Source: an uncultured Planctomycetia bacterium | GTDB taxonomy: Bacteria; Omnitrophota; Gorgyraeia; Tantalellales; Tantalellaceae | Assembly: GCA_964421015.1 (NCBI GenBank) | Contig: CAYQUS010000001.1 | Coordinates: 172,726-236,725 of the forward strand | Direction of reading: 5' to 3' | DNA: 64,000 nt | Part shown: piece by piece, positions 19 through 45,614 of the stretch | Numbering within the stretch: position 1 is the stretch's first letter | Layout of the letters: the number at the start of each line of letters is the position of its first letter | The notes under the pieces: model-generated | What the model was told of the DNA's origin: nothing | Database searches by the model: none | Seen by the model: the letters and a program-made list of their open reading frames with translations, nothing else | Position numbers and translations under genes: made by a program

Positions 19-834
19 TTACTTTCGTCCTCCTGACATTTCAGCAGAACGGTTCCTGGCCGCCAGGACAGCCTCCTTCACGATCTCTTTAAAGCCCTTA
101 TCGGAAAAAACGGAAAGAGCCGCCTCTGTGGTACCGCCCTTGGAAGCCACCATCTTTACAAGATCTGCCGCTTCATGGTCAGACTTCCTTAAAAGTTCCG
201 AAGCCCCTGACAATGTGCCCAGAACCAGTTCTTTCGCCGATTCACGGCTTAACCCTCCGACTATCGCCGCCTCCATCATGGCCTCGGCCAGAGAAAAAAG
301 ATACGCCGGACCGCTGCCCGAAACAGCCGTGACCATGTCCATCATGGTCTCCTTAACATCAACGACATCCCCTATACATCTGAATATTTCCCTGACCCTG
401 TCTCCCGCCTGTACCTTTTCGGCTTGTTCGTTGAACGATAAAGCAGTTACCGACCGTCCTATACCGGCGCAAAGATTGGGCATCGCCCTGACAACCGGGA
501 TGTTTTTTCCGAATCCCGATACGATATCATTTATTCTGACACCTGCCATTACCGAAACTACTGTCTGGTCCACAAGATCGGCAGATATGGATCCCGACAA
601 TCCTGAAAAATCCAACGGTTTAACGGCTATAACTATCACATCGGACCCTCTTACTATCTGTGTCAACTCGCCGTTGCGGCATCCAACCCTGGAACAGAGC
701 TCCTCCGCTTTGGCGGCGTCTTTGTCATAAACATAAACATCTGCCTTCCTGAAATTGCCACGGGAAACTATACCGCTTGCGATAGCTCCGCCCATGTTCC
801 CGCACCCGATTATCCCTATAGACCCTTTTGGCAT
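19..834 (-). CDS. proC: pyrroline-5-carboxylate reductase
   Basis: N-terminal Rossmann motif IGIIGCGNMGGAI and overall P5CR-like sequence; 271 aa. Confidence 0.85.
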   Translation of the reverse strand: MPKGSIGIIGCGNMGGAIASGIVSRGNFRKADVYVYDKDAAKAEELCSRVGCRNGELTQIVRGSDVIVIAVKPLDFSGLSGSISADLVDQTVVSVMAGVRINDIVSGFGKNIPVVRAMPNLCAGIGRSVTALSFNEQAEKVQAGDRVREIFRCIGDVVDVKETMMDMVTAVSGSGPAYLFSLAEAMMEAAIVGGLSRESAKELVLGTLSGASELLRKSDHEAADLVKMVASKGGTTEAALSVFSDKGFKEIVKEAVLAARNRSAEMSGGRK

Positions 835-873: not shown

Positions 874-1929
874 TCAAAAATACTCGTCCATGACTCCGGC
901 TATTTCGTTTACCATCCTCTTAAGCGGGTTTTTCTCGGTCTGTCTTTTGGGACGAGAAACTTCCATCTGGTCGAGTATACCCAGAACAGTCGCGTACTGC
1001 GCTCCGTCCTCGGGCAGCTCCTCCGAAGGATGAGGCAAAGGCAACCCTGCCCTTATAGGAAGCCCCAGGAACTTCTCGGAAGAATGCAGAAAATCATCCG
1101 GGAGAGACTTTGTTCCCGAAACTACGATCTTCCTCATATCGCTCCATCCTCTCATCGACAGGACATTCCTGAAAAACCATCCGTACCCGTCGTACTCCGT
1201 TTCTCCGGCGCCCATATCGGGGCCATCGGCCACAGACCTGTCGAAAACCGAGCAGTTCGCCAGATTCCCGGCATTAAAAAGAAGTACCTCAGTCCTTTTC
1301 CCCCTTACGAAAAAAAAGGCCGTCCTGTCCAGTTTATCGTCTTCCGTGAGTATTCTGGAAGCGCATCCCATGGGGCTAAAAACAAAACCGGCCGGTATAT
1401 ACCCCGCCTGGGCAATGGTCTTTGAAAAGTTCCTCACGACGGTAGCTCCGATAGTCACTATGTTGACCTCAACGCCAAGTTTTACCGCCTCAAGTCCTTC
1501 CGGATCACGGATAAACCTTTCTCCATCGACCGAAAACCCCATGACCACCTTGTGCAGCACTTCCCTGTCGAGCGGTATCCTGGACATGGATCCTATCTCG
1601 ACGCATTTACGCACATCCCTGGATGAAACTTCACGACCGTACCTCGATATAAGAGTGGAAGCGGAAGATGTTAAAACCTCGACAGAAGGAGAGCTTATCC
1701 CGGCGTAGACCTCGCTGAAGGACATATCGGCTTTTTTAGAAAGGCCTTCCAGAAGAGACCTTAAATGTTCAGCGGCGGGATAAACTTCCGTTACCGAACC
1801 GTCCGACAAACCCGAAGACCGAGCCCGGTGAAAAGCCTCGACCACTGCCCGGCCACTTTTTTCCAAACGTACCGCCAAAGCGAAAGTATCTTCGCTGCCG
1901 GCGTCAATAACCGCGAATTTTTTTTCCAT
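874..1929 (-). CDS. ftsA: FtsA-like actin-family cell-division protein with degenerate nucleotide-binding motifs
   Basis: Aligns along its length to E. coli FtsA (VIDAGS phosphate-1, SVLTEDE-like RILTEDDK, C-terminal amphipathic tail); sits directly after ftsQ in the dcw cluster. The DIGGGTxD motif is VRGKRTE and GGGA is SGTK. Confidence 0.7.
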   Translation of the reverse strand: MEKKFAVIDAGSEDTFALAVRLEKSGRAVVEAFHRARSSGLSDGSVTEVYPAAEHLRSLLEGLSKKADMSFSEVYAGISSPSVEVLTSSASTLISRYGREVSSRDVRKCVEIGSMSRIPLDREVLHKVVMGFSVDGERFIRDPEGLEAVKLGVEVNIVTIGATVVRNFSKTIAQAGYIPAGFVFSPMGCASRILTEDDKLDRTAFFFVRGKRTEVLLFNAGNLANCSVFDRSVADGPDMGAGETEYDGYGWFFRNVLSMRGWSDMRKIVVSGTKSLPDDFLHSSEKFLGLPIRAGLPLPHPSEELPEDGAQYATVLGILDQMEVSRPKRQTEKNPLKRMVNEIAGVMDEYF

Positions 1930-3774: not shown

Positions 3775-3810
3775 GTCTTTTCCTCACTTTCATGCCGTTG
3801 TATTTGTTTT

Positions 3811-8424: not shown

Positions 8425-8426
8425 TT

Positions 8427-9776: not shown

Positions 9777-9823
9777 GTTTACCTTCTTCCTCGTTAGTAT
9801 GTCGGGTTTACTGTTCGCGAAAG

Positions 9824-10915
9824 CTATCTTACCTTAAGAGCCATGAGCCCAAAAAGAGCCAGTATCGCCGAAATTATCCAGAATCTGACTGTTATCTTGG
9901 ATTCATGCCATCCCTTCTTCTCAAAATGATGGTGTATCGGTGACATCAGAAAAATACGCTTTCCGCGCGTTTTGAAGGACATTACCTGAAGTATCACGGA
10001 AGCCGTTTCCATCACCAGAACCCCTCCGACCAGTATAAGAAGTATCTCTTTTTTTATTAGAACGCTAACGACGGCTATCGCGCTTCCGAGGGACAGAGAA
10101 CCCGTATCTCCCATAAAAACCGTGGCAGGGTGACCGTTGTACCAAAGAAAACCCAGGCTCGCGCCGGCCAGAGCCGCGCAGAAAATCGTGAGCTCTCCGG
10201 ATCCCGGCACGTAAAAAAGATGCAGATACCCGCTGATATCGGCTCTTCCGGTAACATAGCACATTATCGAATAAGTAAGAGCCACGAAGACCATGCACCC
10301 CGTAGCCAGCCCGTCAAGACCGTCCGTAAGGTTCACGGCGTTCGATGCCCCGGCTATAACGATAAGCGTAAATAGTATATAGAGCGCTCCTAGATTGGCT
10401 ACCGCGTTCTTAAGGAAAGGCACATAAAGATCTGAGCCGAGATACCTGTGTGAAATAACAAATATGCCTACTATGAGAGCAAGCAGTATCTGGGCCCCCA
10501 TCTTATACCGTGCCCCTAACCCCTTTGAATTCTTGTACCTTATTTTAAGAAGGTCGTCGAACGCTCCTACCATTCCCATCCAGGTCATACCCCCAAGAGC
10601 CATGATCAGGTATTCGTTATCGGGCCTTCCCCAGAGCACGCTTGCGAATATAACGGCCGCCAGTATAACGATCCCTCCCATGGTCGGGGTTCCCTGTTTG
10701 CCCTTATGAAGATCATATATCTCCCCCACATGTTCCGTCCTTACGTATTGCCCGGCCTTTATGATGCGCATCCATTTTATAAAAAAAGGCGTAACAAATA
10801 CCGTAAAAAGAAAGGCCGTAAAAGCAGCCATACCCGCCCTGAAGGTTATGTAGCGGAAGACGTTAAACCCGAACCAGAATTCCTTCAGCGGGTACAAGAG
10901 ATAGTAAAACATTTT
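9824..10915 (-). CDS. mraY: phospho-N-acetylmuramoyl-pentapeptide transferase
   Basis: FNVFRYITFRA matches the MraY N-terminus. The start is trimmed to Met27 of the long ORF, which otherwise overlaps murF by 109 bp. Confidence 0.9.
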   Translation of the reverse strand, partial: KMFYYLLYPLKEFWFGFNVFRYITFRAGMAAFTAFLFTVFVTPFFIKWMRIIKAGQYVRTEHVGEIYDLHKGKQGTPTMGGIVILAAVIFASVLWGRPDNEYLIMALGGMTWMGMVGAFDDLLKIRYKNSKGLGARYKMGAQILLALIVGIFVISHRYLGSDLYVPFLKNAVANLGALYILFTLIVIAGASNAVNLTDGLDGLATGCMVFVALTYSIMCYVTGRADISGYLHLFYVPGSGELTIFCAALAGASLGFLWYNGHPATVFMGDTGSLSLGSAIAVVSVLIKKEILLILVGGVLVMETASVILQVMSFKTRGKRIFLMSPIHHHFEKKGWHESKITVRFWIISAILALFGLMALKVR

Positions 10916-12264: not shown

Positions 12265-12293
12265 CTACTTTTATCTTCCCGCAAAAATTGTGA

Positions 12294-13769
12294 TCATGAC
12301 CCGTAACCGATACCGGCTAACGCCGACAAAGCCGATTCCCGGTCGTCAAAATGCACTGTCCTGTCATGGAATATCTGATAATTTTCGTGCCCTTTTCCGG
12401 CGATAATAACGGTATCTCCAGGTTTTGCCCTTTTAACAGCCGAAACTATAGCTTCCATCCTGTCCCTGATTATGCGATATTCCCTGCCCTCTGGTATCCC
12501 TTTCTCTATCTCTCTAAGTATGCTCTCGGGATCTTCCTTCCGGGGGTTGTCGTCCGTAAGAATAACTGCGTCGGAGATATCCGCCGCTATCCTTCCCATT
12601 ACGGGTCTCTTTGTCCTGTCCCTGTTCCCGCCGCACCCGAAAACACAGTACAGCTTACCTGTCGTCACCGCCTTAACGCTCTCAAGAGCGCTGCGCAAAG
12701 CGTCCGGCGTATGGGCGTAATCCACAAAAATACTGAAGGGAGCCGGCGAAACTATCCTTTCTAGCCTTCCAGGTACCCCTATTGCCTTGTCTATGCCGGT
12801 TATTAAGTCGCGGGATGAAAACCCCTTTCTTAAAAAAAGCGCCGCCGCTCCCATTATGTTGCTGATGTTGTGTTTCCCGGCCAGAGAAGACTTTACCCTG
12901 CCGACATTTTTCCCGCCATAAATAAGGTCCAGCTCCGTGCCATCCGGGGTCGATGACACGGCCGAACACGTAAGATCGGAAGAACTTTCAAATCCGAAAG
13001 TCACACGGTCTATTCCATTAAGACCAGCGAAAAATCTTCTTATCTTTGGATCATCATTATTCACCGCCAAAACACCGCCCGGCTTAAGATGCCCGGCTAT
13101 TTTAGCCTTGGCTTTCAGATAAGCGTCCATATCACCGTGGTAGTCAAGATGTTCCGGAGTAAGGTTGGTAAAGACCGCCCCGTCAAAACCTATCCCGAAA
13201 ACCCTGTCCTGATCAAGAGCGTGGCTTGAGACCTCAACCGCCGCGGCCTTTTTGCCATCGTCAACCATCTCCCTGAGCATGCCGTTGAGACGAAGTACAC
13301 CCTGCGTGGTCATATCAGATCTTTCGAGAGCATCGCCCTTTACCCTGTTAAAGACCGTACCGGTCATCCCGCAGGGAATACCCATAGCGTTAAATACGCT
13401 CTCTATTATGGAGACCGTGGTGCTTTTACCGTTAGTACCTGTAACCCCGAAAACTATAAGTTCGCCGGAAGGATCCCTGAAGAATTTCCTGGCAAGCGAG
13501 CCCAGCGCCTTTCTTGAATCCTCTACCGAAAGTATGTCCGCACGGCGGGGATGGGACTCCGGAAATCCCCCCCTTTCACAGACTACCGCTATGGCTCCCC
13601 TCTCAAAAGCTTCGTCAATACGTTCGTGGCCGTCAAAAGAGTTGCCTTTCACTGCCACAAAGATATCCCCCGGGAGCACCTTCCTTGAGTCATCTCTCAG
13701 CCCGGCGCCGCCCTCGCTCAAGGCTCTCTCAATATCGGAAATATTTACGGACGCATGTCCTCTATTCAT
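12294..13769 (-). CDS. murE: UDP-MurNAc-L-Ala-D-Glu--2,6-diaminopimelate ligase
   Basis: Mur ligase P-loop GTNGKSTT; consistent domain order. Confidence 0.9.
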   Translation of the reverse strand: MNRGHASVNISDIERALSEGGAGLRDDSRKVLPGDIFVAVKGNSFDGHERIDEAFERGAIAVVCERGGFPESHPRRADILSVEDSRKALGSLARKFFRDPSGELIVFGVTGTNGKSTTVSIIESVFNAMGIPCGMTGTVFNRVKGDALERSDMTTQGVLRLNGMLREMVDDGKKAAAVEVSSHALDQDRVFGIGFDGAVFTNLTPEHLDYHGDMDAYLKAKAKIAGHLKPGGVLAVNNDDPKIRRFFAGLNGIDRVTFGFESSSDLTCSAVSSTPDGTELDLIYGGKNVGRVKSSLAGKHNISNIMGAAALFLRKGFSSRDLITGIDKAIGVPGRLERIVSPAPFSIFVDYAHTPDALRSALESVKAVTTGKLYCVFGCGGNRDRTKRPVMGRIAADISDAVILTDDNPRKEDPESILREIEKGIPEGREYRIIRDRMEAIVSAVKRAKPGDTVIIAGKGHENYQIFHDRTVHFDDRESALSALAGIGYGS

Positions 13770-15463
13770 TGTGTTTTATTCCCCTGCTTTTGGATCTCTG
13801 TCTCAGGAGCCCCCAGATACTCAAGTGTCCTTTCGGCTATTTTCCGGAAAGTCGGACCGGCCACGGTCCCTCCGAAATGTTGGGGTCTCGGATCCTTGGC
13901 GACGACAACAACGCTTATGAGCGGGTTCTCTCTGGGGGCGAACCCCACAAAAACCGCGTAGTATTTGTCGGGATAATATCCTCCGGCCGGACTGACCATC
14001 TGAGCCGTTCCTGTTTTTCCGCAAGTCTCGTAACGCTTTATCATAGCCTGCTTTCCCGTGCCGTCAGTCACAACTCTCCGCAAAGTACGTTTCATTTTAT
14101 CACAGGTACCGGGACTTATCACCATTCTGCGTTTTTCCGGCAGGAACTTCTTTATTTGTTCCCCTTCCCAGGTAGTCACTTCTTCGACCACATAGGGTTT
14201 TACGAGATATCCCCCGTTGGCTATAACGCTTATGGCTCCGGCAAGCTGTATCGAAGTTACCGCTATCCCCTGCCCCATTGGGATAGTGGTAATGTCGCTT
14301 CGCGACCACACCTCCGGCGGCCGGCATATTCCGGCTATCTCGCCCGGCAGATCTATGCCGCTTTTCTCGCCGAACCCAAACCTTTGAACATACTCGAAAA
14401 GCTTTTTCTCCCCGAGCTTTTGAGCGGTCTTCACCACGCCTATATTGCTGGACTTGGCGATAACATCCTCGAAAGAAAGGTCCCCGTACGGGTGATAATC
14501 GTTAAGAAGCCTCCCGCAGACTTTGTATTTTCCGTTTTCACAGTAAACCTTGTCCTCAAGTTTAATTACACCCTCTTCAAGCGCCGCGCTCGCGGTAACT
14601 ATCTTAAAAACGCTTCCCGGCTCGAAAACGTCAGAAACAGCCGAGTTTTTAGCGTTTTCCCCCTTTAAAGAAGACGGATCGTTCGGATCGTACCCGGGGC
14701 GATTGGCCATGGCCAGTATCTTGCCTGAGGATGGCTCCATAACGATCACACTTCCGCCCGCGGCGTTAAACTGGCTGACCATAACGTCAAGCTCTTCCTC
14801 GGCTATATACTGGATAACGCTGTCTATGGTGAGGATTATATTATTGCCGTTGCGCGGCGGAACGGATTCGGACTCCTTTCTCAGGACCGAACGCATGCGG
14901 GCATCTCTGGTCTCGTGGCGTATACCCGGCCGCCCCTTAAGTTCCTTGTCGTACAGAAGCTCTATGCCTTCCAGTCCCTCATTATCCATGCCGACAAAAC
15001 CAAGAACATGCGAAGCCATCGTGTCGTTGGGGTATTTTCTTTTGCTCTCCGGACGGAAATAAACTCCTCTCAGGTTCAGAGAACTAAGCCGCTCGTAGTC
15101 GGAGTGCTCTATCTTCCTCTTTATCCATACAAAAGCCTTGTCGCGCTCAAGTTTTTTTTCCACATCGGAGACCTCGAGATCAAGTTCTTCCGCGAGAGTG
15201 TCAGAAAGGGATTTTTTGTCTGTCACCACCCTGGGATTACAGAACACGCTTTCAACTTCCATATTGATCGCTAAGGGGTCCATGTATCTGTCGAATACGG
15301 TACCGCGGCGGGGTTCCACCTGGAGTATCTGGTTGTGCTGTTTTTCAGCAAGAACGGAATACTTATCCCGGTCAACTACCTGTATGTAGAATAGACGGGC
15401 AAAAATAAATAAAAAAAACCCGCAAAAAGCGAGCATCACCATATATCGGCGCGTACTAAACAT
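13766..15463 (-). CDS. ftsI: penicillin-binding protein 3-like transpeptidase (FtsI)
   Basis: N-terminal TM segment, PBP dimerisation domain, transpeptidase SxxK motif (GSVFK) and KTG motif. Confidence 0.9.
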   Translation of the reverse strand: MFSTRRYMVMLAFCGFFLFIFARLFYIQVVDRDKYSVLAEKQHNQILQVEPRRGTVFDRYMDPLAINMEVESVFCNPRVVTDKKSLSDTLAEELDLEVSDVEKKLERDKAFVWIKRKIEHSDYERLSSLNLRGVYFRPESKRKYPNDTMASHVLGFVGMDNEGLEGIELLYDKELKGRPGIRHETRDARMRSVLRKESESVPPRNGNNIILTIDSVIQYIAEEELDVMVSQFNAAGGSVIVMEPSSGKILAMANRPGYDPNDPSSLKGENAKNSAVSDVFEPGSVFKIVTASAALEEGVIKLEDKVYCENGKYKVCGRLLNDYHPYGDLSFEDVIAKSSNIGVVKTAQKLGEKKLFEYVQRFGFGEKSGIDLPGEIAGICRPPEVWSRSDITTIPMGQGIAVTSIQLAGAISVIANGGYLVKPYVVEEVTTWEGEQIKKFLPEKRRMVISPGTCDKMKRTLRRVVTDGTGKQAMIKRYETCGKTGTAQMVSPAGGYYPDKYYAVFVGFAPRENPLISVVVVAKDPRPQHFGGTVAGPTFRKIAERTLEYLGAPETEIQKQGNKTQ

Positions 15464-15563
15464 TCGTTTGTGTTCTCCGCTGTACTGTAGCCCGAGGGGA
15501 TCGGGCTCTCAATCGGTCGGGATTAGTTCCGGTATAAGTCGGACCCGTTCTTTACTCAATACA

Positions 15564-15926
15564 TCAGATACGGTCATGAGCCTCGGCTGTGACCGTAAAA
15601 ATATCCATTATCTTATCGGCGAACGCCTCCTCATAACGGTCGGAAGCGTCATAAAGACCCGTTATTGAATAGGTATTGCCCCTGTCGCGTCTTTGCCCGG
15701 CGAACTGTATCTCCTTGCCCGACAGCGACGCCAGAAGATACCGGGGAGTCTCCATTTTCGAGAGATTATACATTAGGTCGGAATTGCGGTCAACAAGACA
15801 CGAGAGCTTTTTCCTGTCCTGCTGAAGGCCGTAACCCGTCTTGTATATCTCAGCGTGCTGATGCACGTAAAGAGACGCCACAGAAGTGAAAATAACCCCG
15901 GTCAACATCAGACTTTTAATTTTCAT
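15564..15926 (-). CDS. small single-TM protein in the FtsL position
   Basis: 120 aa with an N-terminal TM helix; its start overlaps the rsmH stop by 4 bp. No diagnostic motif was found. Confidence 0.4.
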   Translation of the reverse strand: MKIKSLMLTGVIFTSVASLYVHQHAEIYKTGYGLQQDRKKLSCLVDRNSDLMYNLSKMETPRYLLASLSGKEIQFAGQRRDRGNTYSITGLYDASDRYEEAFADKIMDIFTVTAEAHDRI

Positions 15927-16807
15927 TTGATCCTTTCCGCCACCCTTAGTTTGGCGCTCCTTGAACGCGGGTTGGTCTTTACTTCATCCTCACACGGGAT
16001 GATGGGCTTCTTCGCAAGCATCTTAAGAGTCCCGAACTTTGCCTCTTTTTTAAAGACCGTCTTAACTACCCTGTCCTCAAGAGAATGGAAAGATATAGCG
16101 CATATCCTTCTACCCGGCGCAAGAACCGAAATCGCGCCCTCTAAACCTTGTTCCGCCGCCGATAACTCATCATTGACTTTTATCCTTAATGCCTGAAAAG
16201 TCCTGCAGGCCGGATGTATCCGCTGCTTTGAGTACCACCTGCCTACGGCTTTTTCCACTATCCCGGAAAGCTGGCCGGTGGTTTCTATCCTGGCCTCTTT
16301 CCTGCCGGCTACTATCGCCGAGGCAATGAGCCTGTAATGGCGCTCCTCTCCATAATCTCGTATCAGCTCACGTATATCCTCTTCGCTGAACGTATTAACT
16401 ATATCTCTTGCCGTTATGCCTCCGGCCCTGTCAAAACGCATGTCCAGCGGACCTTCCAGCGTGTAACTGAATCCCCGTGCAGCCTCATCGATCTGATACG
16501 ATGAAAAACCAAGATCAAAAACCGCTCCGTCTATTTTACCTATCCCTCTTTCTTTCAGTATGTCCGCTATATCCCTGAAGTTCCCTTTAACCGGCACTAC
16601 GTTCTTTATTCCTTCACCGAATATCTTTTCGGCTCTTTCTACAGCCTCCACGTCGCGGTCTATCGCCACCAAGATCCCACCCGGTGTTATTCTTTTCAAT
16701 ATCTCCGCCGAGTGTCCACCTCCCCCGAAAGTAGCGTCCACCACCACATCTCCGGGCCGGGGATCCAGGAACGACAAAACCTCTTCTTTCATTACGGGAA
16801 GATGCAA
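15923..16807 (-). CDS. rsmH: 16S rRNA (cytosine1402-N4)-methyltransferase
   Basis: HxPV(L/M)xxE N-terminal motif and SAM motif DATFGGGGHS. Apparent TTG start 1 nt after the upstream ORF's stop. Confidence 0.9.
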   Translation of the reverse strand: MHLPVMKEEVLSFLDPRPGDVVVDATFGGGGHSAEILKRITPGGILVAIDRDVEAVERAEKIFGEGIKNVVPVKGNFRDIADILKERGIGKIDGAVFDLGFSSYQIDEAARGFSYTLEGPLDMRFDRAGGITARDIVNTFSEEDIRELIRDYGEERHYRLIASAIVAGRKEARIETTGQLSGIVEKAVGRWYSKQRIHPACRTFQALRIKVNDELSAAEQGLEGAISVLAPGRRICAISFHSLEDRVVKTVFKKEAKFGTLKMLAKKPIIPCEDEVKTNPRSRSAKLRVAERIK

Positions 16808-16808
16808 A

Positions 16809-17048
16809 TCAGTTTCCCTTCCTGGGATCTCTGCCGAAGACCTTGCTCATCGTGTCCATCTGATTGCGGTAAAAATTCTTGTAACTCGACGCCAGGTCGT
16901 TCTTAGCTTCAGGCTCGGACTTGCCCGTCTGTACGGCATGGTTATGGACCTTGCCGTACAGGGAACCGCCTATCTCGCAGGCCTGGAGCCTTCGTTTGTT
17001 CTCGGCTTCCTTGACGCTCAAGATTTTCCCCACGGTCACGTTGCTCAT
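16809..17048 (-). CDS. hypothetical protein, 79 aa
   Basis: Its ATG overlaps the upstream ORF's stop (TAATG) and its stop lies 1 nt before the rsmH start. No recognised domain. Confidence 0.45.
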   Translation of the reverse strand: MSNVTVGKILSVKEAENKRRLQACEIGGSLYGKVHNHAVQTGKSEPEAKNDLASSYKNFYRNQMDTMSKVFGRDPRKGN

Positions 17049-17263
17049 TACTTGCAGTCCTTTACGCTTAAGTACGCTTTTTTCCCGATGTCACTGGAAG
17101 TAACTACGAACCTCCTGACCCCAAGATGTGACATCCCGTCCGGAAGAGCTCTGGCTTTTTTCACACGCTCCACTATGTTCACACAGTTTATGAACTCTCT
17201 CTGCTTTTTATTGAACTCCATAGCGTATCGTTTGTACATACCCACCCCCCGGGCTAAAAACAT
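17048..17263 (-). CDS. hypothetical protein, 71 aa
   Basis: Its ATG overlaps the mraZ stop (TGATG). It exactly fills the mraZ-rsmH gap together with the 79-aa ORF. No recognised domain. Confidence 0.45.
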   Translation of the reverse strand: MFLARGVGMYKRYAMEFNKKQREFINCVNIVERVKKARALPDGMSHLGVRRFVVTSSDIGKKAYLSVKDCK

Positions 17264-17700
17264 CAGAAATCCATAAGGTTTTCCGCTATCTGCTCGTAAT
17301 TCTCTTTTGAGTTTTTATAAAAATCCATCCACTTCTGTTTGTCCCATATCTCTATCCTGTTAGAAACGCCGACCACCATTATCTCCTTGGAGAGCCCGCC
17401 GTATTCTTTGAGGTAATCCGGGACAAGTATCCTCCACTGTTTGTCTGGCGACGCCTGAGAAGCCCCCGCAAAAAATATACGCTGGAATTTCCTGTACTCT
17501 TTTTTGGTGAAAGACATGGCCTTGAATTTACTTTCCTGCTGCCTCCACTCTTTCTCTGGAAAAACAAAAAGACACTCATCAAGCCCTCTCGTCAGGTAGA
17601 GTGTCTGGGAATCAGCTTCTTCAAGGGGCTGCCGGAACCGGGCCGGAATTATCACCCGATTCTTATCGTCTATGCTGTGAAGGTACTCTCCGTAAAACAT
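17263..17700 (-). CDS. mraZ: transcriptional regulator MraZ
   Basis: Two MraZ repeats with DxxxR motifs (DDKNRVIIP, DKQWRILVP); first gene of the dcw cluster. Confidence 0.9.
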   Translation of the reverse strand: MFYGEYLHSIDDKNRVIIPARFRQPLEEADSQTLYLTRGLDECLFVFPEKEWRQQESKFKAMSFTKKEYRKFQRIFFAGASQASPDKQWRILVPDYLKEYGGLSKEIMVVGVSNRIEIWDKQKWMDFYKNSKENYEQIAENLMDF

Positions 17701-21365: not shown

Positions 21366-22415
21366 TCAGGCGCTTAAAATGGAATCCGCTGTTCCGAAAA
21401 TATTTTTCTCGCAGCGCGGATTTGACGGATCTGTCATCCAGGTATCGTCAACGAGGAACTTATACCTGTATTGTCCTCTTTTCATGGCGAAGTGTCCGGA
21501 CCACTCGCCGTTTTCCTGTTTTACAAGCTGATTGTCGTCGCTCTTTTCCCAGTTATTAAAATCTCCCAGCACGTAAACGGATCCTGCCTGAGGGATACTT
21601 ATCGTGAACTCTTTAACTATAACGTCCATCTTCCTGGTCTCAAAGTTCACTATCTCGCTTGTGATGTTGTAAAAATCCAGAGCAGCGAATGACTTCGGAT
21701 CGTACTCAAATATAGTCTTACCGCTCCTGGCCGCCTCTCTCAATCTCACACTTGACCTTATCTTGGTGGAAAGCATGTACGGCCCAAGTCTTTTCTGCGC
21801 GTCCTTTTCTATCTGCCTTGCGAAATTTGACCGTCCGTCGTAAATGTTCATCGCGAAATATGTGGCCGGAGATCTCCCTGTTTCTGACTTCAGAAGGCTG
21901 GTTACCCTGTAAACATTGCTTATACCGTTGAACGAAAAGTAGCTGAGGTCTATCGGGACTATTATCACATCGGCCGCGTACATGGAATTAAGCGTAAGAA
22001 ATCCAAAACTCGGAGGTGAATCTATGATCGCGTAGTCATAACTCTCGAAAAAAACATTTTTCAGCACACGGTGAAGCACGGAAGCCGCACCGTTCACTCC
22101 GCCCAGATTTATTTCCGCTGTAGAAAGCATCATGTTCGCGGGGATAAAACCCAGATTTTCCCTGCCTTCCGAAACGATGGTTATCTCTCCGAGCGGCGGT
22201 TCAACACTGTCAAAATGAGCTCTGAAGATATCATATGAGGTTTTTCTATCCGAAGATTCCCGGGTATAGCCGAGAGCGTACGTAGCGTGCGCCTGCGGGT
22301 CGAGGTCTACAAGCAGGGTCTTTGACCCCATTTTCGCCAAAGCCGCGGCGATATTGACCGCCATCGTCGTTTTTCCACATCCACCTTTCTGGTTGGCAAT
22401 AGATATAACTTTCAT
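21366..22415 (-). CDS. ParA/MinD-family ATPase fused to a C-terminal CBM48 (AMPK-beta glycogen-binding) domain
   Basis: Deviant Walker A NQKGGCGKTT and a ParA-like body (~255 aa). The C-terminal ~85 aa (VYVLGDFNNWEK...GQYRYKFLVDDTWMTDPSNP) align closely with the AMPK-beta GBD/CBM48. Confidence 0.8.
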   Translation of the reverse strand: MKVISIANQKGGCGKTTMAVNIAAALAKMGSKTLLVDLDPQAHATYALGYTRESSDRKTSYDIFRAHFDSVEPPLGEITIVSEGRENLGFIPANMMLSTAEINLGGVNGAASVLHRVLKNVFFESYDYAIIDSPPSFGFLTLNSMYAADVIIVPIDLSYFSFNGISNVYRVTSLLKSETGRSPATYFAMNIYDGRSNFARQIEKDAQKRLGPYMLSTKIRSSVRLREAARSGKTIFEYDPKSFAALDFYNITSEIVNFETRKMDVIVKEFTISIPQAGSVYVLGDFNNWEKSDDNQLVKQENGEWSGHFAMKRGQYRYKFLVDDTWMTDPSNPRCEKNIFGTADSILSA

Positions 22416-22717
22416 TCTAATCCTCCCGCGCAATTTGTGGTTGATAATGGCCGCTTGCGATGTACCTCGTATTTTGCGAAGAGTATACCATAAGGATTCA
22501 ATTGTGTAAATAGCGGCGAAAATAATAGTTACGAAAAGTCCTCCCTCTTTTGAACACCAACCCCCAGGCCGGTACTATTTTCTTATGTACAACGTGTCCC
22601 GGTTACTGTATCATATGTATCTTACTTGCTAAAAGTTTACGTGTTTTTTCATTACGGCTCCGTATTTCACGCGGTATTTTAACTGCCCGGACCGTTAGAA
22701 CAACTTGTCGGTGGTAT

Positions 22718-23560
22718 ATGGCCCAAAAAACAGAGAAATGGGATTCTATAGACAGCGAACTTGCGAGGACCTATTTCAACCCCATGGAAAACGGCCGCAG
22801 GGTATTCCCTGCTCAGGCTAAAGTTCCGCACCATGCGCTTACCATAAGAAAGACCGCGGCCATACTTACGGCTTTGGCGGCAGCGGGACTAGCTTTCATT
22901 CTCGCTGTAAATGTCATGAACGGCATCAAATCTTCGTCCGCTCACGCCAGGAAAAACAGCGTTAAGAACCTGCCTTTATCCTACGCTTTCCTTCCGATAG
23001 AGATGCGTAACGAAAAAATACTTTACGATTTCGAAACGTCAAAGGACGGATGGGAAATACCTCTGTGGGCATCGGAAAAAGAAGACCATACGCAAAGATC
23101 GATGGACATCTCCTCGGACATATCCTCGCGAGGAGAGAAAAGCCTCAAGATAACATCCGACTTTATTCCCGGCAAGTGGGTCGCCTCTATAGGCGAGATA
23201 CAGCACTATCTTGACCTTTCGGATTACGATGCCGTATCGGTTGACATCTATCTCCCTCCTGACGCGCCGTCAAGAGGGTTCAGGGCAAAACTCATTTTCA
23301 CTGTCGGAGAAGACTGGAAATTCATAGAGATGTCCCGTTCGGTTCGCCTTGAGAACGGGAAATGGAACAACATCTTCGCGAGCATAAAACCCGATTCCAA
23401 AGACTGGAAATGGACCAAGGTGAACGAATCGTTCAAGGAAGACGTCAGAAAGATATCTCTACGGGTAGAATATGAAGGCAAGGACGGATATTCCGGTCCG
23501 GTGTACATAGATAATTTCAGAACAGGCAACACGGGCCCTGCCGGCCCCGAAAATTTATAA
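22718..23560 (+). CDS. membrane-anchored protein with a C-terminal CBM-like beta-sandwich domain
   Basis: The start is trimmed to MAQKTEKW. One TM helix; the C-terminal ~190 aa show a YDFE..GW / W...G / GKWN pattern like carbohydrate-binding modules. Divergent from the ParA-CBM48 gene. Confidence 0.45.
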   Translation: MAQKTEKWDSIDSELARTYFNPMENGRRVFPAQAKVPHHALTIRKTAAILTALAAAGLAFILAVNVMNGIKSSSAHARKNSVKNLPLSYAFLPIEMRNEKILYDFETSKDGWEIPLWASEKEDHTQRSMDISSDISSRGEKSLKITSDFIPGKWVASIGEIQHYLDLSDYDAVSVDIYLPPDAPSRGFRAKLIFTVGEDWKFIEMSRSVRLENGKWNNIFASIKPDSKDWKWTKVNESFKEDVRKISLRVEYEGKDGYSGPVYIDNFRTGNTGPAGPENL

Positions 23561-31272: not shown

Positions 31273-32358
31273 ATGTTCGCTAAGTCAAGAAGGAAACAAC
31301 TGTTATCGGCTGTACTTTTCGTGTCTTTTGTTATCTCGTACTTATGCCCCGCTGAACTGTACTCCGACTCATCCGCTATTATCCCGCATAAAGGAATGTG
31401 CTACGCCACCTGGGAGCAGGAAAAGTTCTCTTCGGAACATTCCGACGAGTCCCTCGCCAGGTTAAGCGCCCTCGGCACAGACCATATATCGCTCATTGTC
31501 ACCCGTTATCAGGAAAGATACAACTCCACAAAAATCGTGTCCAACGAAAGGACCCCTAGCGACAAAAGCCTTCTCCATGCGGCAAAGACCGCGCATAAGT
31601 TAGGGCTGACGGTTATGTTAAAACCGCACATAGACCTTATAGAGAAGGGTGACGGGACATATTGGCGGGCCGACATAGGTTTCAACTCTACGGAAGACTG
31701 GGAAGAATGGTTCAAAGAATACAGGAAGATGATAGTGCATTACGCCAAACTTGCCGAAAAGATGGAAGCTGATATTTTCTGCGTGGGAACGGAACTTTCT
31801 TTTACCAGCCAGAAAAAAGAAGAGTGGCTCAGGATAATAAGCGAAGTCCGGGAAGTTTTCAGCGGAAAACTGGTCTATGCGGCCAACTGGGATGAGTTCA
31901 AAAATATCGAGTTCTGGGACAAACTCGATTACGTCGGAATAGACGCCTACTTCCCCCTGTCATACTCCCCCAACCCTGAAGTCGAAGACCTCAAAAGAGG
32001 CTGGGAAAAATGGAAACTGGAACTAAGGGACTGGCATTCCGCAATAAATAAACCCATACTTTTCACGGAGCTGGGCTACGCCAGCACGCCTAACGCGCCC
32101 TATTCACCCTGGGAAGGGGGCATGCAGGGTAACGCGGATGTGGAGATACAGGCAAAATGCTACGAGGCCTTTTTTGAGACTATCTGGCAGGAACCATGGT
32201 TTGCCGGTGTATACTGGTGGAAATGGAACCCCAACGTTCGCTCCGGCGGAAAATACAACCGCAGATTTACCCCTCAGAATAAGCCGGCGGAGAAAATAAT
32301 AGAAGCCCATTATAGAGGGGAAGGCTCTGCCGTTTCCAGGATAGCCATGGCCAAATAA
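31273..32358 (+). CDS. secreted TIM-barrel glycoside hydrolase (clan GH-A-like; family uncertain)
   Basis: Signal peptide; motifs FCVGTELS and FTELGY typical of clan GH-A catalytic glutamates; WWKW near the C-terminus. Confidence 0.6.
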   Translation: MFAKSRRKQLLSAVLFVSFVISYLCPAELYSDSSAIIPHKGMCYATWEQEKFSSEHSDESLARLSALGTDHISLIVTRYQERYNSTKIVSNERTPSDKSLLHAAKTAHKLGLTVMLKPHIDLIEKGDGTYWRADIGFNSTEDWEEWFKEYRKMIVHYAKLAEKMEADIFCVGTELSFTSQKKEEWLRIISEVREVFSGKLVYAANWDEFKNIEFWDKLDYVGIDAYFPLSYSPNPEVEDLKRGWEKWKLELRDWHSAINKPILFTELGYASTPNAPYSPWEGGMQGNADVEIQAKCYEAFFETIWQEPWFAGVYWWKWNPNVRSGGKYNRRFTPQNKPAEKIIEAHYRGEGSAVSRIAMAK

Positions 32359-34176: not shown

Positions 34177-34226
34177 AATTTTTCCTTTCGTTTTATTTGA
34201 ACGGAGAAATACTTTCCCTACAAAAA

Positions 34227-42407: not shown

Positions 42408-42746
42408 TTAAATATTGATCATTTTCTCGGCCCAGTCGCCGACATAGGGTATCTTCCATTCTTTCCCCTTCAGGACATTAACAATAGCCATTACGGACAC
42501 AACAAGACAAACCAGACCGCCTATCTGCGATATGAGAACACCCAGGAACGGAACTATCCCTATTATCGCAAGAGCGACCTCTATTATAAAGAGCATAAGA
42601 CCCTGCCTTGAATGGAACTTGACCGAAGGATCGTCCTTTTTCATAAGAACAGGAATAAGACAAAGTACCCAAATGTACGCCAGAACCGAGTATATGTTAT
42701 CCTTCGTTATCTGGATATTGGAAAAACCTTTTTTTTCGTCAGCCAT
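42408..42746 (-). CDS. DUF4870-like small membrane protein
   Basis: Start trimmed to MADEKK, which has an AGGGGGAT ribosome-binding site; two or three TM helices. Confidence 0.5.
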   Translation of the reverse strand: MADEKKGFSNIQITKDNIYSVLAYIWVLCLIPVLMKKDDPSVKFHSRQGLMLFIIEVALAIIGIVPFLGVLISQIGGLVCLVVSVMAIVNVLKGKEWKIPYVGDWAEKMINI

Positions 42747-42875
42747 TTTATCCCCCTTTTTTATTTTTCCTTTATATCCGCTCTTTTCAGTATTACATTC
42801 TAATATCGTGCCGGTAAAAGTCAATGATTTCGTTAATGAAGATAACATATGTTTTCCCGTGCAGAAACGTTGGCC

Positions 42876-42939: not shown

Positions 42940-44385
42940 TTAGAAGCTCAGCTTGACAGTACCGACAACATCCGTAGCCGGGGCTCTCTTGCCTATACCC
43001 TGAGTGTCAGCGGAGAACGCTGAACCCGGGAAGAACCACGCTGTCAGAAGACCGAACTGCACGTCTTCAGTGTAGTCCCAAGTCACGTTGCAGTCAAGTT
43101 CCTGTCCGAGGAACCTGTTGGTGTTGGTCTGAACAACTCCGCCGTTCTGGGCGTAATCAGCATACATCCAGAAGAAAGCGTAAGTACCTTCTACCTTCAC
43201 GCTGTCCATGGGCTCAACAGTCGCCTTGAAGAGCATCTGGTGCTGGTTCGTAGAACCAGGAGTAACGCCCTGAGTTGTGGGGTAGAAAGTCCCCTGGAAC
43301 TCGCGGATGGCGGTGTCGAACTTACCGCGATACATCGAATCCCATCCGGTGTAGTTTCCGCCGGTTGTGTTGTTAACATTGCCTTCATCGGTCTGACCGG
43401 AATATACTATGTACTCAGCCGCCAGAACAGGCCTCCAAGCATAGTCATCCTGGAACACTCTTGTCTCAACCATAGCGTCTATGGCGTAGGCATATCTGTC
43501 CCTTTCCCACACCTGGTTGTTGGCGCCAAGATAGTTACCCATCTGTATGGCACCTTCAAGAGCTATCGTCCAATCTTCGATCGGATCAAAGCTGCCCCTC
43601 ATACCGAAAGTGTTAACATCGTTGCTGAGGTGGCCCTGGTTTTCCATAAAGGAACCGCCTCTTGCCACACCAGGATTGCGGTTCTGCCTGAGCCAGTAAT
43701 AACCTTCCATTTCGGCATTGTACTGGTCGAACACATAACCCACGTTAACACCCATGAGGTTCACATCGTCATCGGCTCTTGTGGCTCTTTCGTTTATCTT
43801 CGCGTATACGAAGTCAAGGGTCCACGGATCGTAGTCAAGTGTCGCCCTTATCGCGTCGAAAGAGTTTATCGCGGTGTATTCCGGAGCGGGCAGGTTACCC
43901 TGCGGATCCATAAGGCTGTTGCCTATTATGAACCCTCTTCCGAACCATATGTCCTGACGACCTATCTTCAGTGTGAGCGGGCTGTAAAGGAACTCTTTGA
44001 GCTCTATGTAAGCAAGATCAGCCGCTACGTTGAACGCGTTGTTGTTGCTGTTGTCGCCGGCCACTGTCGCGATCTCGGGATCGGCGCCGTAGGAGTATCT
44101 CTGGTCGCCCCATACCCTCTGATTGAGAAGCCTTATCACACCTGACACATTGTCGGTAAGTTCGGCGTCAACCTGAACCTCGGCAGTGCTCATGAGAAAA
44201 GACTGCGAGTTGGTGGAAGCGTTCGTACCGGTATTGTTGTCACGGCTGTTAAGGTCGTAGTTGTCTCTCATGAAAGCGCGAGCGGCTATGTCTCCGCTTA
44301 CTTTCACGCTCTGAGTCTCGGCATAAGCCACGCCGGTGAAGGCGAAAGCGAGCGCCAAAACTAACACTATCTTCACTAACTTCAT
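42940..44385 (-). CDS. outer-membrane beta-barrel porin-like protein
   Basis: Signal peptide; alternating beta-strand pattern rich in Y/G/N/D; C-terminal LSF aromatic terminus typical of OMPs. Confidence 0.6.
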   Translation of the reverse strand: MKLVKIVLVLALAFAFTGVAYAETQSVKVSGDIAARAFMRDNYDLNSRDNNTGTNASTNSQSFLMSTAEVQVDAELTDNVSGVIRLLNQRVWGDQRYSYGADPEIATVAGDNSNNNAFNVAADLAYIELKEFLYSPLTLKIGRQDIWFGRGFIIGNSLMDPQGNLPAPEYTAINSFDAIRATLDYDPWTLDFVYAKINERATRADDDVNLMGVNVGYVFDQYNAEMEGYYWLRQNRNPGVARGGSFMENQGHLSNDVNTFGMRGSFDPIEDWTIALEGAIQMGNYLGANNQVWERDRYAYAIDAMVETRVFQDDYAWRPVLAAEYIVYSGQTDEGNVNNTTGGNYTGWDSMYRGKFDTAIREFQGTFYPTTQGVTPGSTNQHQMLFKATVEPMDSVKVEGTYAFFWMYADYAQNGGVVQTNTNRFLGQELDCNVTWDYTEDVQFGLLTAWFFPGSAFSADTQGIGKRAPATDVVGTVKLSF

Positions 44386-44963: not shown

Positions 44964-45614
44964 TCATCTCTTCAGGCGGGCCACTATGTCTTCCGAGTTT
45001 TTGAGTATTTCGGCTTTGATCTCGCAAGATGAAGTTAAAGCTCCGATTATTTTGTTTATTTTTTCTTCGCTTAGAAGGTCTTCGGGCATATGAGAATCGG
45101 TGTTAAGGACCATCTTCGCCCCTGTTTTGCGGGCCGCCTCAAAAACATGTTTATTCCCCAGATCATGCCCTCGCCTGGCGGTTATCTCAAGATACACACC
45201 TTTTTCGGCGGCAAGCGCCGCGTCCTCTTCGGTTATGTAGCCGGGATGCGCCAGTATGTCCACTCCCGCCAGTATGGCCGCCCGGTTAGTCCCGGGCAAA
45301 ACAGGCTCTACAGGAGACTCCCCATGAGCAACAACTATCCTGGCCCCCATCTTGCGGGCATCCTTCGAAAGTTGAGAGAAAGTCTCAAGAGGTATATGCG
45401 TTAACTCCACTCCCGGAATAACGACTATCCCCCAGTACTTTGTAAGCACTTTTGCCGCGCGCGTAATACCGTAAAGGATAGACTCGATATTAGAATGGTC
45501 CGCATGGTCGGTAATGGCGATCGCCTTATAACCGGCCGCGTCGGCGCGTCTTGCCAGCTCGCTGGGAATAAGTACTCCGTCGCTTAAAAAAGAGTGTGTA
45601 TGAAGGTCTATCAT
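44964..45614 (-). CDS. PHP-domain phosphoesterase
   Basis: MIDLHTHSFLSDG and DHAD metal-binding motifs. Confidence 0.8.
   Translation of the reverse strand: MIDLHTHSFLSDGVLIPSELARRADAAGYKAIAITDHADHSNIESILYGITRAAKVLTKYWGIVVIPGVELTHIPLETFSQLSKDARKMGARIVVAHGESPVEPVLPGTNRAAILAGVDILAHPGYITEEDAALAAEKGVYLEITARRGHDLGNKHVFEAARKTGAKMVLNTDSHMPEDLLSEEKINKIIGALTSSCEIKAEILKNSEDIVARLKR

What the first reader, a model, noticed from the sequence alone, without database searches (positions are those of the whole stretch)
21366..23560. ParA-type ATPase fused to a glycogen-binding CBM48 domain, divergent from a membrane protein with a CBM-like domain
The 349-aa minus-strand protein has a deviant Walker A box (KGGCGKT) and a full ParA/MinD body. 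Its last ~85 residues (VYVLGDFNNWEK...GQYRYKFLVDDTWMTDPSNP...GTADSIL) align closely with the AMPK-beta glycogen-binding domain (CBM48). ParA-family ATPases normally dock to cargo through a separate adaptor, as with ParB or McdB. A covalently attached glycogen-binding module instead suggests the ATPase binds an alpha-glucan granule directly, for example to position glycogen granules on the nucleoid. I do not know of a described ParA-CBM48 architecture. No parB, parS-like repeat or min gene is nearby. The divergently transcribed neighbour (22718..23560) is a single-TM protein whose C-terminal ~190 aa look like a beta-sandwich carbohydrate-binding module, so the gene pair may form a polysaccharide-positioning module.
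Basis: partly seen in the sequence, partly recalled or inferred. Interest (0 to 1): 0.75.

Follow-up and report, generated by a model that had tools for sequence, protein, structure and literature searches.

The report
ParA ATPase fused to glycogen-binding module
A bacterial "cargo-positioning" ATPase has a glycogen-type sugar-binding domain built into it and is paired with a membrane protein that carries a short docking peptide; the pair belongs to a large family found in many phyla that no paper I could find describes, and it may organise storage sugar inside cells.

Summary
Window 21366..22415(-) encodes a 349-aa protein made of a Soj-type ParA ATPase (Walker A KGGCGKT) and a C-terminal AMPK-beta-type CBM48 (Pfam PF16561, 44.7 bits against a cut-off of 26.8).

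It is not an artefact. The same architecture occurs in more than 100 Omnitrophota protein clusters and in at least 78 genomes from about 10 phyla. In all 78, the ATPase motifs and the two glycogen-binding tryptophans (W289, W326) are invariant.

The divergent neighbour (22718..23560) is a membrane protein with one transmembrane helix and a periplasmic jelly-roll CBM fold. The only conserved feature of its cytoplasmic tail is an N-terminal peptide (DxIDxELxRTYF). Related peptides, ParB-like "LGRGLEDISHLFLS" in other phyla, start the gene next to the ATPase in 57 of 78 loci.

In relatives the pair often sits beside cytoplasmic alpha-glucan enzymes: GH57 in 21 of 32 loci, and GH77 in one locus. 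No parB, parS or min genes are present.

Best reading: a two-component ParA-type system that handles cytoplasmic alpha-glucan (glycogen). Sugar binding and positioning are inferred, not shown. I found no publication describing it. I rate it a new variant of a known kind, interest about 0.68.

The parts
21366..22415 (-). ParA-CBM48 gene (349 aa plus stop). ATG at 22413-22415, preceded by the Shine-Dalgarno-like GGGAGGA.
21642..22415 (-). Soj-type ParA ATPase domain (residues 1-258). D37/D39 (Walker A'), D132 (Walker B) and R195 (equivalent to Soj R189; codon 21831-21833) are invariant in 78 of 78 family members.
22368..22391 (-). Deviant Walker A, QKGGCGKT (residues 9-16), with signature Lys K10. 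The Cys at position 13 is a family hallmark, present in 78 of 78 members.
21369..21623 (-). C-terminal CBM48 / AMPK-beta-type glycogen-binding module (residues 265-349). W289 (21549-21551) and W326 (21438-21440) align with AMPK beta1 W100 and W133; K319 aligns with K126.
22416..22717 (.). 302-bp divergent intergenic region. Promoter-like sites lie on the - strand (22510->22482, 10 of 12 matches, TG extension) and the + strand (22586-22614, 9 of 12). No iterons or parS-like repeats.
22718..23560 (+). Candidate partner gene: 280-aa membrane protein with one transmembrane helix (N-terminus in the cytoplasm, C-terminus outside).
22742..22777 (+). Conserved cytoplasmic N-terminal peptide DSIDSELARTYF (residues 9-20). 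I11 and F20 are invariant; D9, D12, E14, L15 and Y19 are at least 90% conserved, while the rest of the tail is hypervariable. Proposed ParA-binding and activating motif.
22844..22933 (+). Transmembrane helix (residues 43-72).
23003..23533 (+). Extracytoplasmic beta-jelly-roll CBM-like domain (residues 96-272), with folds like CBM27, CBM11, CBM22, CBM28 and the mannanase CBM.

Best explanation
This is a two-gene ParA-type positioning module for cytoplasmic alpha-glucan (glycogen).

The ATPase is a Soj-like ParA that should dimerise on ATP. Each subunit ends in a CBM48, so the ATP dimer presents two glycan-binding sites and would bind a multivalent glycogen particle with avidity. This parallels the way MinD dimers gain membrane affinity from two C-terminal helices. 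The conserved Soj R189-equivalent arginine suggests that it also still binds nucleoid DNA.

The divergently transcribed membrane protein supplies the second component. Its conserved cytoplasmic N-terminal peptide docks on the ATPase dimer, as ParB, MinE and McdB N-termini do, and triggers ATP hydrolysis and release. Cycles of binding and release would distribute or anchor glycogen particles relative to the nucleoid and the membrane.

Shown here: the architecture, conservation of the motifs, gene linkage, and alpha-glucan enzymes next to related loci. Inferred: glycan binding, DNA binding, the peptide-ATPase contact, and the positioning outcome.
For: 1. ParA core. It has the deviant Walker A with signature Lys, and D37/D39, D132 and R195 are invariant in 78 of 78 members. 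The fold matches Soj/ParA at TM 0.89-0.92.

2. CBM48. Pfam AMPK1_CBM scores above its cut-off. PDB sequence hits to the C-terminal domain are all alpha-glucan CBM48 modules: AMPK beta, neopullulanase, pullulanases, GlgB and SIP2. The Trp pair that AMPK needs to bind glycogen (PMC7393401) is invariant in 78 of 78 members from about 10 phyla.

3. Alpha-glucan context. In the 30-40% identical Omnitrophota relatives, a GH57 without a signal peptide (PF03065, E=8e-63) lies two genes upstream in 21 of 32 loci. In L016 the ATPase abuts GH77 MalQ (E=2e-177) and a GH57/DUF3536 protein.

4. Partner. An N-terminal [LIVM][SA]xx[FY][LFIM] peptide is found in 62 of 153 adjacent genes against 78 of 964 other genes, and in 57 of 78 loci. 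In the window's partner family it is the only conserved element of the cytoplasmic tail. In other phyla it reads LGRGLEDISHLFLS, which resembles the ParB ParA-binding motif (PMC12462528). The gap between partner and ATPase genes is about 20 bp (median) in operonic loci. The type-A and type-B partners are probably homologous (hhalign 75%, E=2.5e-5).

5. Modularity. The window keeps the flanking backbone PHP - Alginate_exp - DUF4870 contiguous without the module. GH57 + partner + ATPase therefore behave as an insertable block.

6. Glycogen synthesis is inferred for most Omnitrophota MAGs in one study (PMC8542988).
Against: - No glycogen or alpha-glucan gene lies in the 64-kb window. The GH57 link comes only from relatives at about 35% identity and from conserved synteny within one phylum, so the loci are not independent events.
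- This CBM subtype is also abundant as tandem repeats in proteins with signal peptides, and it gives a weak hit to a T9SS plug protein. The conserved tryptophans may therefore serve other ligands or the fold itself.
- Ca. Aadella gelida carries an orthologue (P0065) but was reported with trehalose synthesis and not glycogen synthesis. That MAG is 91% complete.
- A periplasmic CBM on the partner has no obvious role in positioning a cytoplasmic granule.
- The peptide-ATPase contact was not modelled.
Confidence: 0.42

Rival explanations
1. The cargo is the membrane partner (an envelope glycan-binding protein or its complex), positioned along the cell by the ParA. The CBM48 acts as a glycogen or energy-status sensor that tunes the ATPase, as the AMPK beta CBM tunes AMPK. 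This might couple envelope growth or division to carbon reserves.
For: The partner is a membrane protein with a conserved ParA-type N-peptide. In all close relatives the pair lies upstream of the dcw division/cell-wall cluster. ParA/MinD ATPases are known to position membrane complexes (reviews checked).
Against: Five unrelated genes (RF-1, Smr, SNF, PC4, PilZ) separate the pair from mraZ. The more distant type-B loci are not near dcw. No precedent was found for a sensing CBM in a ParA.
Confidence: 0.2
2. The C-terminal domain has the CBM48/E-set fold but does not bind alpha-glucan. It would be a protein-protein or other-ligand module, so the system positions an unknown cargo.
For: The same subtype occurs in secreted 3-18-repeat proteins and in the C-terminus of a T9SS plug model. 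CBM_48 PF02922 is just below its cut-off. One orthologue-bearing MAG was reported without glycogen synthesis.
Against: All PDB sequence hits are alpha-glucan binders. The Trp pair, F286, Y318, D329, G341 and S345 are invariant in 78 of 78 members. GH57 and GH77 genes are neighbours in related loci.
Confidence: 0.15
3. It is a BcsQ-like assembly factor of an exopolysaccharide (alpha-glucan) synthesis and export machine that includes the Alginate_exp-type outer-membrane barrel and the membrane partner.
For: There are weak BcsQ hits (Pfam 1.8e-6; NCBIfam 70.7 bits). An Alginate_exp barrel lies 2-4 genes upstream in 24 related loci.
Against: The BcsQ score is far below the cut-off (157.85). No synthase or glycosyltransferase is in the loci. 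The window keeps Alginate_exp and DUF4870 adjacent without the module, so the barrel is backbone and not part of the system. The GH57 lacks a signal peptide.
Confidence: 0.08
4. It is the organism's chromosome-partition ParA (Soj) that has merely acquired an accessory domain.
For: The closest solved structures are chromosomal Soj/ParA. The DNA-binding Arg is conserved. Some sources name it 'chromosome partitioning protein'.
Against: There is no parB beside it in any of the 78 loci or in the window and no parS. The GC skew is uniform with no origin-like switch. NCBIfam ParA_partition scores 111.5 against a cut-off of 180. The family is also present in phyla known to have canonical ParAB (the presence of ParAB there is my own knowledge). 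Whether this genome has another ParAB was not tested.
Confidence: 0.07
5. The fusion is an assembly or frameshift artefact that joins two separate genes.
For: None.
Against: The identical protein is on 8 contigs from independent assemblies. Hundreds of full-length homologues exist. The model is confident and continuous across the junction.
Confidence: 0.01

Closest known systems
Chromosomal Soj/ParA of ParABS (T. thermophilus Soj 1wcv, M. xanthus ParA 8ray, H. pylori Soj 6iub)
   Same: Same fold and size of the ATPase core, at 30-35% identity. It shares the deviant Walker A with signature Lys, the conserved R189-equivalent Arg, and a partner that bears a short N-terminal peptide.
   Different: It has an extra C-terminal CBM48 and family-specific KGGCGKT and DPQxHAT motifs. 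There is no ParB or parS. The partner is a membrane protein (or, in other phyla, a degenerate ParA-like protein) rather than a CTPase DNA clamp.
McdA/McdB carboxysome positioning system
   Same: An orphan ParA-type ATPase dedicated to a non-DNA cytoplasmic cargo (a bulky storage or metabolic body), encoded next to a small, rapidly evolving partner and sometimes next to cargo genes.
   Different: In McdAB the cargo link is entirely through McdB. Here a cargo-binding domain is covalently part of the ATPase and the partner is membrane-anchored. Sequence similarity is weaker (6non/6nop, E about 1e-16).
MinD (with MinE)
   Same: The logic is similar: a C-terminal appendage whose affinity for a surface becomes effective only in the ATP dimer, and an activator peptide that triggers release.
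   Different: The appendage is an 85-aa CBM48, not an amphipathic helix. No minC or minE is present. MinD structures are much more distant (E about 1e-8).
AMPK beta-subunit CBM / plant PTST and other CBM48 targeting proteins
   Same: Same CBM48 subfamily with the W...K...W glycan platform. The module is used to bring a non-catalytic or regulatory protein to glycogen or starch.
   Different: Here it is fused to a bacterial P-loop positioning ATPase rather than a kinase scaffold or a coiled coil.
BcsQ (ParA/MinD-type ATPase of cellulose secretion)
   Same: A ParA/MinD-family ATPase associated with polysaccharide biology and membrane partners.
   Different: The score is well below the family cut-off, there are no bcs genes, and the associated enzymes are cytoplasmic alpha-glucan enzymes.

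Membership tests
ParA/MinD (deviant Walker A) ATPases | Deviant Walker A KGGxxGK[ST] with an N-terminal signature lysine | tested here: met
   QKGGCGKT at residues 9-16; K10 and K15 are invariant in 78 of 78 members
ParA/MinD (deviant Walker A) ATPases | Walker A' and Walker B aspartates, and the overall SIMIBI fold | tested here: met
   D37/D39 and D132 are invariant. Foldseek gives TM 0.89-0.92 to Soj/ParA. Pfam AAA_31 E=3.9e-46
ParA/MinD (deviant Walker A) ATPases | ATP-dependent dimerisation and partner-stimulated ATPase activity | not testable with these tools
   Needs biochemistry
ParA/MinD (deviant Walker A) ATPases | Cognate partner with an N-terminal activating peptide | tested here: inconclusive
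   A conserved N-terminal motif is found in the adjacent gene in 57 of 78 loci, and it is ParB-like in other phyla. Physical contact was not modelled (the tool only accepts window or database sequences)
Chromosomal ParABS (Soj-Spo0J-parS) | Adjacent parB gene | tested here: not met
   No Spo0J/ParB homologue in the window or in any of the 88 loci (Pfam maps)
Chromosomal ParABS (Soj-Spo0J-parS) | parS sites nearby | tested here: not met
   1 match with 3 mismatches against 1.78 expected by chance; no palindromic repeats around the gene
Chromosomal ParABS (Soj-Spo0J-parS) | Curated equivalog score (NCBIfam ParA_partition NF041546) | tested here: not met
   111.5 bits against a cut-off of 180
Chromosomal ParABS (Soj-Spo0J-parS) | Non-specific DNA-binding arginine (B. 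subtilis Soj R189) | tested here: met
   R195 aligns with the YDGR arginine of Thermus Soj and is invariant in 78 of 78 members. The residue's role is from my own knowledge; DNA binding itself is untested
CBM48 / AMPK-beta glycogen-binding domain | Profile match above the curated threshold | tested here: met
   PF16561 scores 44.7 against 26.8; PF02922 scores 22.1 against 22.4, just below. PDB hits are AMPK beta1/2 at E about 1e-7
CBM48 / AMPK-beta glycogen-binding domain | Glycan-platform tryptophan pair (AMPK beta1 W100, W133) and K126 | tested here: met
   W289 and W326 are present in 78 of 78 members; K319 is K, R or Q. The role of the pair is from PMC7393401
CBM48 / AMPK-beta glycogen-binding domain | Binding of glycogen or alpha-glucan | not testable with these tools
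   Needs a pull-down, ITC or cyclodextrin assay
MinD | C-terminal amphipathic membrane-targeting helix, and minC/minE partners | tested here: not met
   The C-terminus is a beta-sandwich. No min genes are in the window. NCBIfam minD_bact scores 41.6 against 212.9
BcsQ | Curated score and a bcs operon context | tested here: not met
   TIGR03371 scores 70.7 against 157.85; no bcs genes are nearby
CBM27 / mannanase galactose-binding-like CBM (neighbour protein) | Profile match above threshold | tested here: inconclusive
   The window protein scores 23.7 against 27. The orthologue from L009 scores 32.7 against 27 and CBM27 20.3 against 20
CBM27 / mannanase galactose-binding-like CBM (neighbour protein) | Beta-jelly-roll CBM fold | tested here: met
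   Foldseek: 1wky E=1e-9, 1pmh (CBM27) 1.9e-7, also CBM11, CBM22 and CBM28. The ligand is unknown

The most novel reading that the evidence does not exclude
This would be a ParA/MinD system that works on a polysaccharide. ATP-driven dimerisation makes a bivalent CBM48 clamp, so glycogen itself is the cargo, or even the surface on which the ATPase cycles in place of DNA or membrane. A membrane-anchored activator peptide resets it. If so, this is the first carbohydrate-based member of the family. It would be the first dedicated machinery for organising or inheriting glycogen in bacteria, it is present in about 10 phyla, and it comes with a recognisable partner-peptide code.
Probability: 0.3. Interest if true: 0.85.

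Novelty: new variant of a known kind. Interest (0 to 1): 0.68.

Why it matters
ParA/MinD ATPases are the general bacterial solution for placing large objects such as chromosomes, plasmids, carboxysomes, chemoreceptor arrays and the divisome. The two reviews and primary papers I checked name no polysaccharide cargo, and how bacteria distribute glycogen is essentially unstudied.

This family offers a directly testable case. The predicted cargo-binding site is built into the ATPase and has known point mutants (W289A, W326A). A candidate activator peptide of about 12 residues is defined. The family is large and phylogenetically broad.

It also shows that "orphan" ParAs annotated as chromosome-partitioning proteins in MAGs can hide distinct systems. 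The conserved N-terminal partner peptide can be used to find their adaptors.

Tried and rejected
- Assembly or frameshift artefact: rejected.
- ParABS: rejected. There is no parB in the window or in any of the 88 loci, no parS, and no iterons in the intergenic region.
- Export-machine reading through the Alginate_exp barrel: weakened, because the window keeps PHP - Alginate_exp - DUF4870 contiguous without the module.
- Looking up two other window proteins to get precomputed annotation: both failed, no exact product on record. I annotated by Pfam instead.
- Exhaustive search with the C-terminal 123 aa to size the family: uninformative. Secreted proteins with 3-18 tandem CBM48 repeats outrank the fusions. 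It did give a useful caution about the domain's other contexts.
- Search from a Desulfobacteraceae member to find a cultured host: the top 120 hits all have the fusion, and none is named as an isolate (the few that carry a source name are MAGs).
- AFDB fold search for named organisms: the library was unavailable.
- Literature searches for ParA + CBM48, glycogen or Omnitrophota and two ParA/MinD overviews: no description of this architecture. The library lacks most subscription journals.
- Complex prediction of ATPase plus peptide: not possible, because the tool only accepts window or database sequences.
- Whether the same genome has a canonical parAB or glycogen genes: not determinable from a 64-kb window.
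Full report
**1. The observation**

The minus-strand ORF at 21366..22433 is real.

Pfam places a ParA-type ATPase at the N-terminus: AAA_31 at residues 1-178 (E=3.9e-46) and CbiA (6.7e-17). It places the AMPK-beta glycogen-binding module PF16561 at residues 278-336 with 44.7 bits, above the curated 26.8. The broader CBM_48 model scores 22.1, just under its 22.4 cut-off.

Against solved structures, the body is closest to chromosomal Soj/ParA: 1wcv (3.4e-34), 8ray and 6iub. The tail matches AMPK beta1/beta2 CBMs. With the tail alone, every PDB hit is an alpha-glucan CBM48: AMPK beta, neopullulanase, pullulanases, GlgB and SIP2.

An AlphaFold2 model built on 67 homologues is confident throughout (pLDDT 90.2, pTM 0.85, no segment below 50). 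A six-residue linker joins the last ParA helix to a beta-sandwich. Foldseek gives TM 0.89-0.92 (target-normalised) to Soj/ParA.

**2. The fusion is not an artefact, and it is not rare**

The identical protein is on 8 contigs from independent assemblies, including NCBI MAG GCA_035399965.1. The neighbour's exact sequence is named as Candidatus Omnitrophota.

More than 100 clusters (at 90% identity) of 347-349 aa share the architecture at 58-88% identity. All the named ones are Omnitrophota.

The 80 loci kept cover the whole protein at 30-40% identity. They come from Omnitrophota, Desulfobacterota ("delta proteobacteria"), Krumholzibacteriota, Rokubacteriota, Gemmatimonadales, Margulisiibacteriota, Eisenbacteria, Myxococcota, Planctomycetota, Auribacterota and others.

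A Desulfobacteraceae member used as a query again returned 120 of 120 top hits with both domains, none named as an isolate.

In an alignment of 78 members, these residues are invariant: KGGCGKT, D37, D39, H43, D132 and R195 in the ATPase, and F286, W289, Y318, W326, D329, G341 and S345 in the CBM. K319 is K, R or Q.

W289 and W326 align with AMPK beta1 W100 and W133. AMPK needs this tryptophan pair to bind glycogen (PMC7393401).

**3. The neighbour**

22718..23560(+) encodes 280 aa. The model has an N-terminal helix (2-20), a disordered basic stretch, a TM helix (43-72) and a very confident beta-sandwich (96-272).

The sandwich matches the mannanase CBM 1wky (E=1e-9), CBM27, CBM11, CBM22 and CBM28. 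Pfam is sub-threshold for the window protein but above threshold in an orthologue.

The family has 128 hits, and every named one is from Omnitrophota. It also includes roughly 196-aa paralogues that consist of the sandwich alone, some of them named "glycan-binding surface protein".

In 34 full-length members, the tail, TM helix and linker are hypervariable except for one peptide near the N-terminus, D-x-I-D-x-E-L-x-[RK]-T-Y-F. There I11 and F20 are invariant, and D9, D12, E14, L15 and Y19 are at least 90% conserved. The basic residues before the TM helix and the surface-type domain after it argue for an N-in, C-out topology.

**4. The two genes are a module, and the neighbour looks like the ParA partner**

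In all six non-redundant close-relative loci the neighbour is divergent from the ATPase. In one of them a 2082-aa gene has been inserted between the two.

I clustered the genes flanking the ATPase in 78 loci. In 34 more distant Omnitrophota loci, the gene immediately upstream and co-directional (median gap about 20 bp) is a 191-aa single-TM protein. Its N-terminus reads MDKKDIYEHLAKIYLD followed by a lysine run. Its extracytoplasmic domain is probably homologous to the window's sandwich (hhalign 75%, E=2.5e-5). Seven further loci have a 266-aa variant with the motif LGQLADVYF.

In non-Omnitrophota loci, the gene immediately downstream starts with K-x-LGRGLEDISHLFLS. One such gene continues into a degenerate CbiA/ParA-like domain.

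A single core pattern, [LIVM][SA]xx[FY][LFIM] within the first 70 residues, is present in 62 of 153 adjacent genes against 78 of 964 other genes, and in 57 of 78 loci.

ParB binds and activates ParA through exactly this kind of short N-terminal aliphatic/basic motif, and a peptide alone suffices (PMC12462528).

I therefore read the neighbour's N-peptide as the ATPase-docking and activating element.

**5. Link to alpha-glucan**

In the type-B Omnitrophota loci, a 519-aa GH57 (PF03065, E=8e-63) lies two genes upstream of the ATPase in 21 of 32 loci with enough sequence. It starts directly with its catalytic domain and has no signal peptide.

In L016 the ATPase abuts GH77 4-alpha-glucanotransferase (E=2e-177) and a GH57/DUF3536 protein. 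These are cytoplasmic alpha-glucan enzymes.

The other recurrent neighbours are PHP, a lipoprotein, an Alginate_exp-type barrel, a DUF4870-like membrane protein, a Lys-rich small protein and DUF134. They appear to be syntenic backbone. The window itself carries PHP (44964..45614), Alginate_exp (42940..44385) and DUF4870-like (42408..42848) contiguously, without the module between them. At least six type-B loci lack the GH57.

So partner + ATPase is the constant pair, GH57 is a frequent third member, and the export-barrel association is probably incidental.

**6. Context in the window**

The pair lies upstream of a complete dcw cluster: mraZ, rsmH, ftsL, ftsI, murE, murF, mraY, murD, ftsW, murG, murC, murB, ddl, ftsQ, ftsA. 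Five unrelated genes (RF-1, Smr, SNF, PC4, PilZ) separate them.

Methionine-biosynthesis genes lie on the other side.

There is no ParB, second ParA, min gene, parS or glycogen gene in the 64 kb. The GC skew is uniform.

The 302-bp intergenic region has divergent promoter-like sites and no repeats.

**7. Mechanism**

Most likely (about 0.4): a ParA-type system for cytoplasmic glycogen.

- ATP dimerisation gives two CBM48s and hence avid binding to a multivalent particle.
- The invariant R195 suggests nucleoid binding is retained.
- The membrane partner's peptide triggers hydrolysis and release.

Shown: architecture, motif conservation, gene linkage, neighbouring enzymes. Inferred: every binding event and the cellular outcome.

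The main weaknesses are these:

- There is no glycogen gene in the window.
- The GH57 evidence comes from relatives at about 35% identity within one phylum.
- The same CBM subtype is used in secreted tandem-repeat proteins.
- One orthologue-bearing MAG (Ca. Aadella gelida) was reported without glycogen synthesis.
- The partner's periplasmic CBM has no explained role.

The rivals are, in order:

- The membrane partner is the cargo, and the CBM48 senses glycogen or energy status (0.2).
- The CBM48-fold domain has a non-glucan ligand (0.15).
- It is a BcsQ-like secretion factor (0.08).
- It is a plain chromosome-partition ParA (0.07).
- It is an artefact (0.01).

**8. Comparison and novelty**

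[quoted passage not shown] It fails the ParABS tests: no parB, no parS, and an equivalog score of 111.5 against 180.

It fails the MinD and BcsQ tests too.

It works most like McdAB, an orphan ParA for a bulky non-DNA body with a fast-evolving partner. The difference is that part of the cargo link is built into the ATPase.

The C-terminal domain passes the sequence tests for AMPK-beta-type CBM48.

None of my literature searches found a description of this architecture or of ParA-mediated glycogen positioning. Databases call it "AAA family ATPase" or "chromosome partitioning protein".

I rate it a new variant of a known kind. It is of real interest to the ParA/MinD and glycogen fields because it is widespread, it has a defined partner peptide, and it can be tested directly with point mutants.

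Noticed in passing
window 19-17700 (- strand): There is a complete dcw cluster (mraZ ... ftsQ, ftsA), but the gene after ftsA (874..1929) is proC (19..834), not ftsZ. A paper on PVC division reports dcw genes as highly conserved in Omnitrophota, so ftsZ may lie elsewhere in this genome.
   Followed up: partly
window 42408-45614 (- strand): PHP (44964..45614), an Alginate_exp-type barrel (42940..44385) and a DUF4870-like membrane protein (42408..42848) are contiguous. In related Omnitrophota the GH57-partner-ParA-CBM48 block sits between the barrel and DUF4870, so this looks like an 'empty site' and implies the module moves as a block.
   Followed up: yes
L048, L075, L076, L079 (+1 and +2 genes); also L051, L062, L067, L068, L072, L087: Outside Omnitrophota, the gene after the ATPase begins with a ParB-like K-x-LGRGLEDISHLFLS peptide. 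In L048 and L075 a protein with no Pfam match follows it. In L048 the partner continues into a degenerate ParA/CbiA-like domain that lacks a Walker A (a pseudo-ATPase partner).
   Followed up: partly
P0241, P0248, P0254, P0265 (database proteins): Many proteins with signal peptides carry 3-18 tandem copies of the same AMPK-type CBM48 subtype; about 480-aa proteins with four copies are very common. Their function is unknown to me. It shows the module is also widely used outside the cytoplasm.
   Followed up: partly
L003 1-9809: Two very large genes (>2012 aa and 2082 aa) with no Pfam match flank the partner gene, and one separates it from the ATPase. A GH130 follows the ATPase in that locus.
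   Followed up: no
window 31273-32358 (+): A GH113 (beta-mannanase family) gene is one of the few + strand genes. Together with the neighbour's mannan-type CBM fold (CBM27, mannanase CBM) and the GH130 in L003, it hints that the partner's outer domain may see a mannan-like glycan.
   Followed up: no
type-B loci, +2 gene (e.g. L031 11514-11936): A conserved 140-aa protein (29 loci) has an extremely lysine-rich N-terminal half and a small C-terminal barrel that weakly resembles the C-terminus of peptidase U32. Its basic disordered tail recalls McdB-like ParA partners, but there is no homologue at the corresponding position in the window.
   Followed up: partly
window 1-64000: The + strand has strongly and uniformly negative GC skew, and almost all genes are on the - strand. 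There is no skew switch, so the window lies within one replichore.
   Followed up: no
window 32854-34278 and 60217-61197: There are two PhoH-family ATPase genes, one fused to a PIN domain. L013 also has a PIN/PhoH-like gene between GH57 and the ATPase.
   Followed up: no
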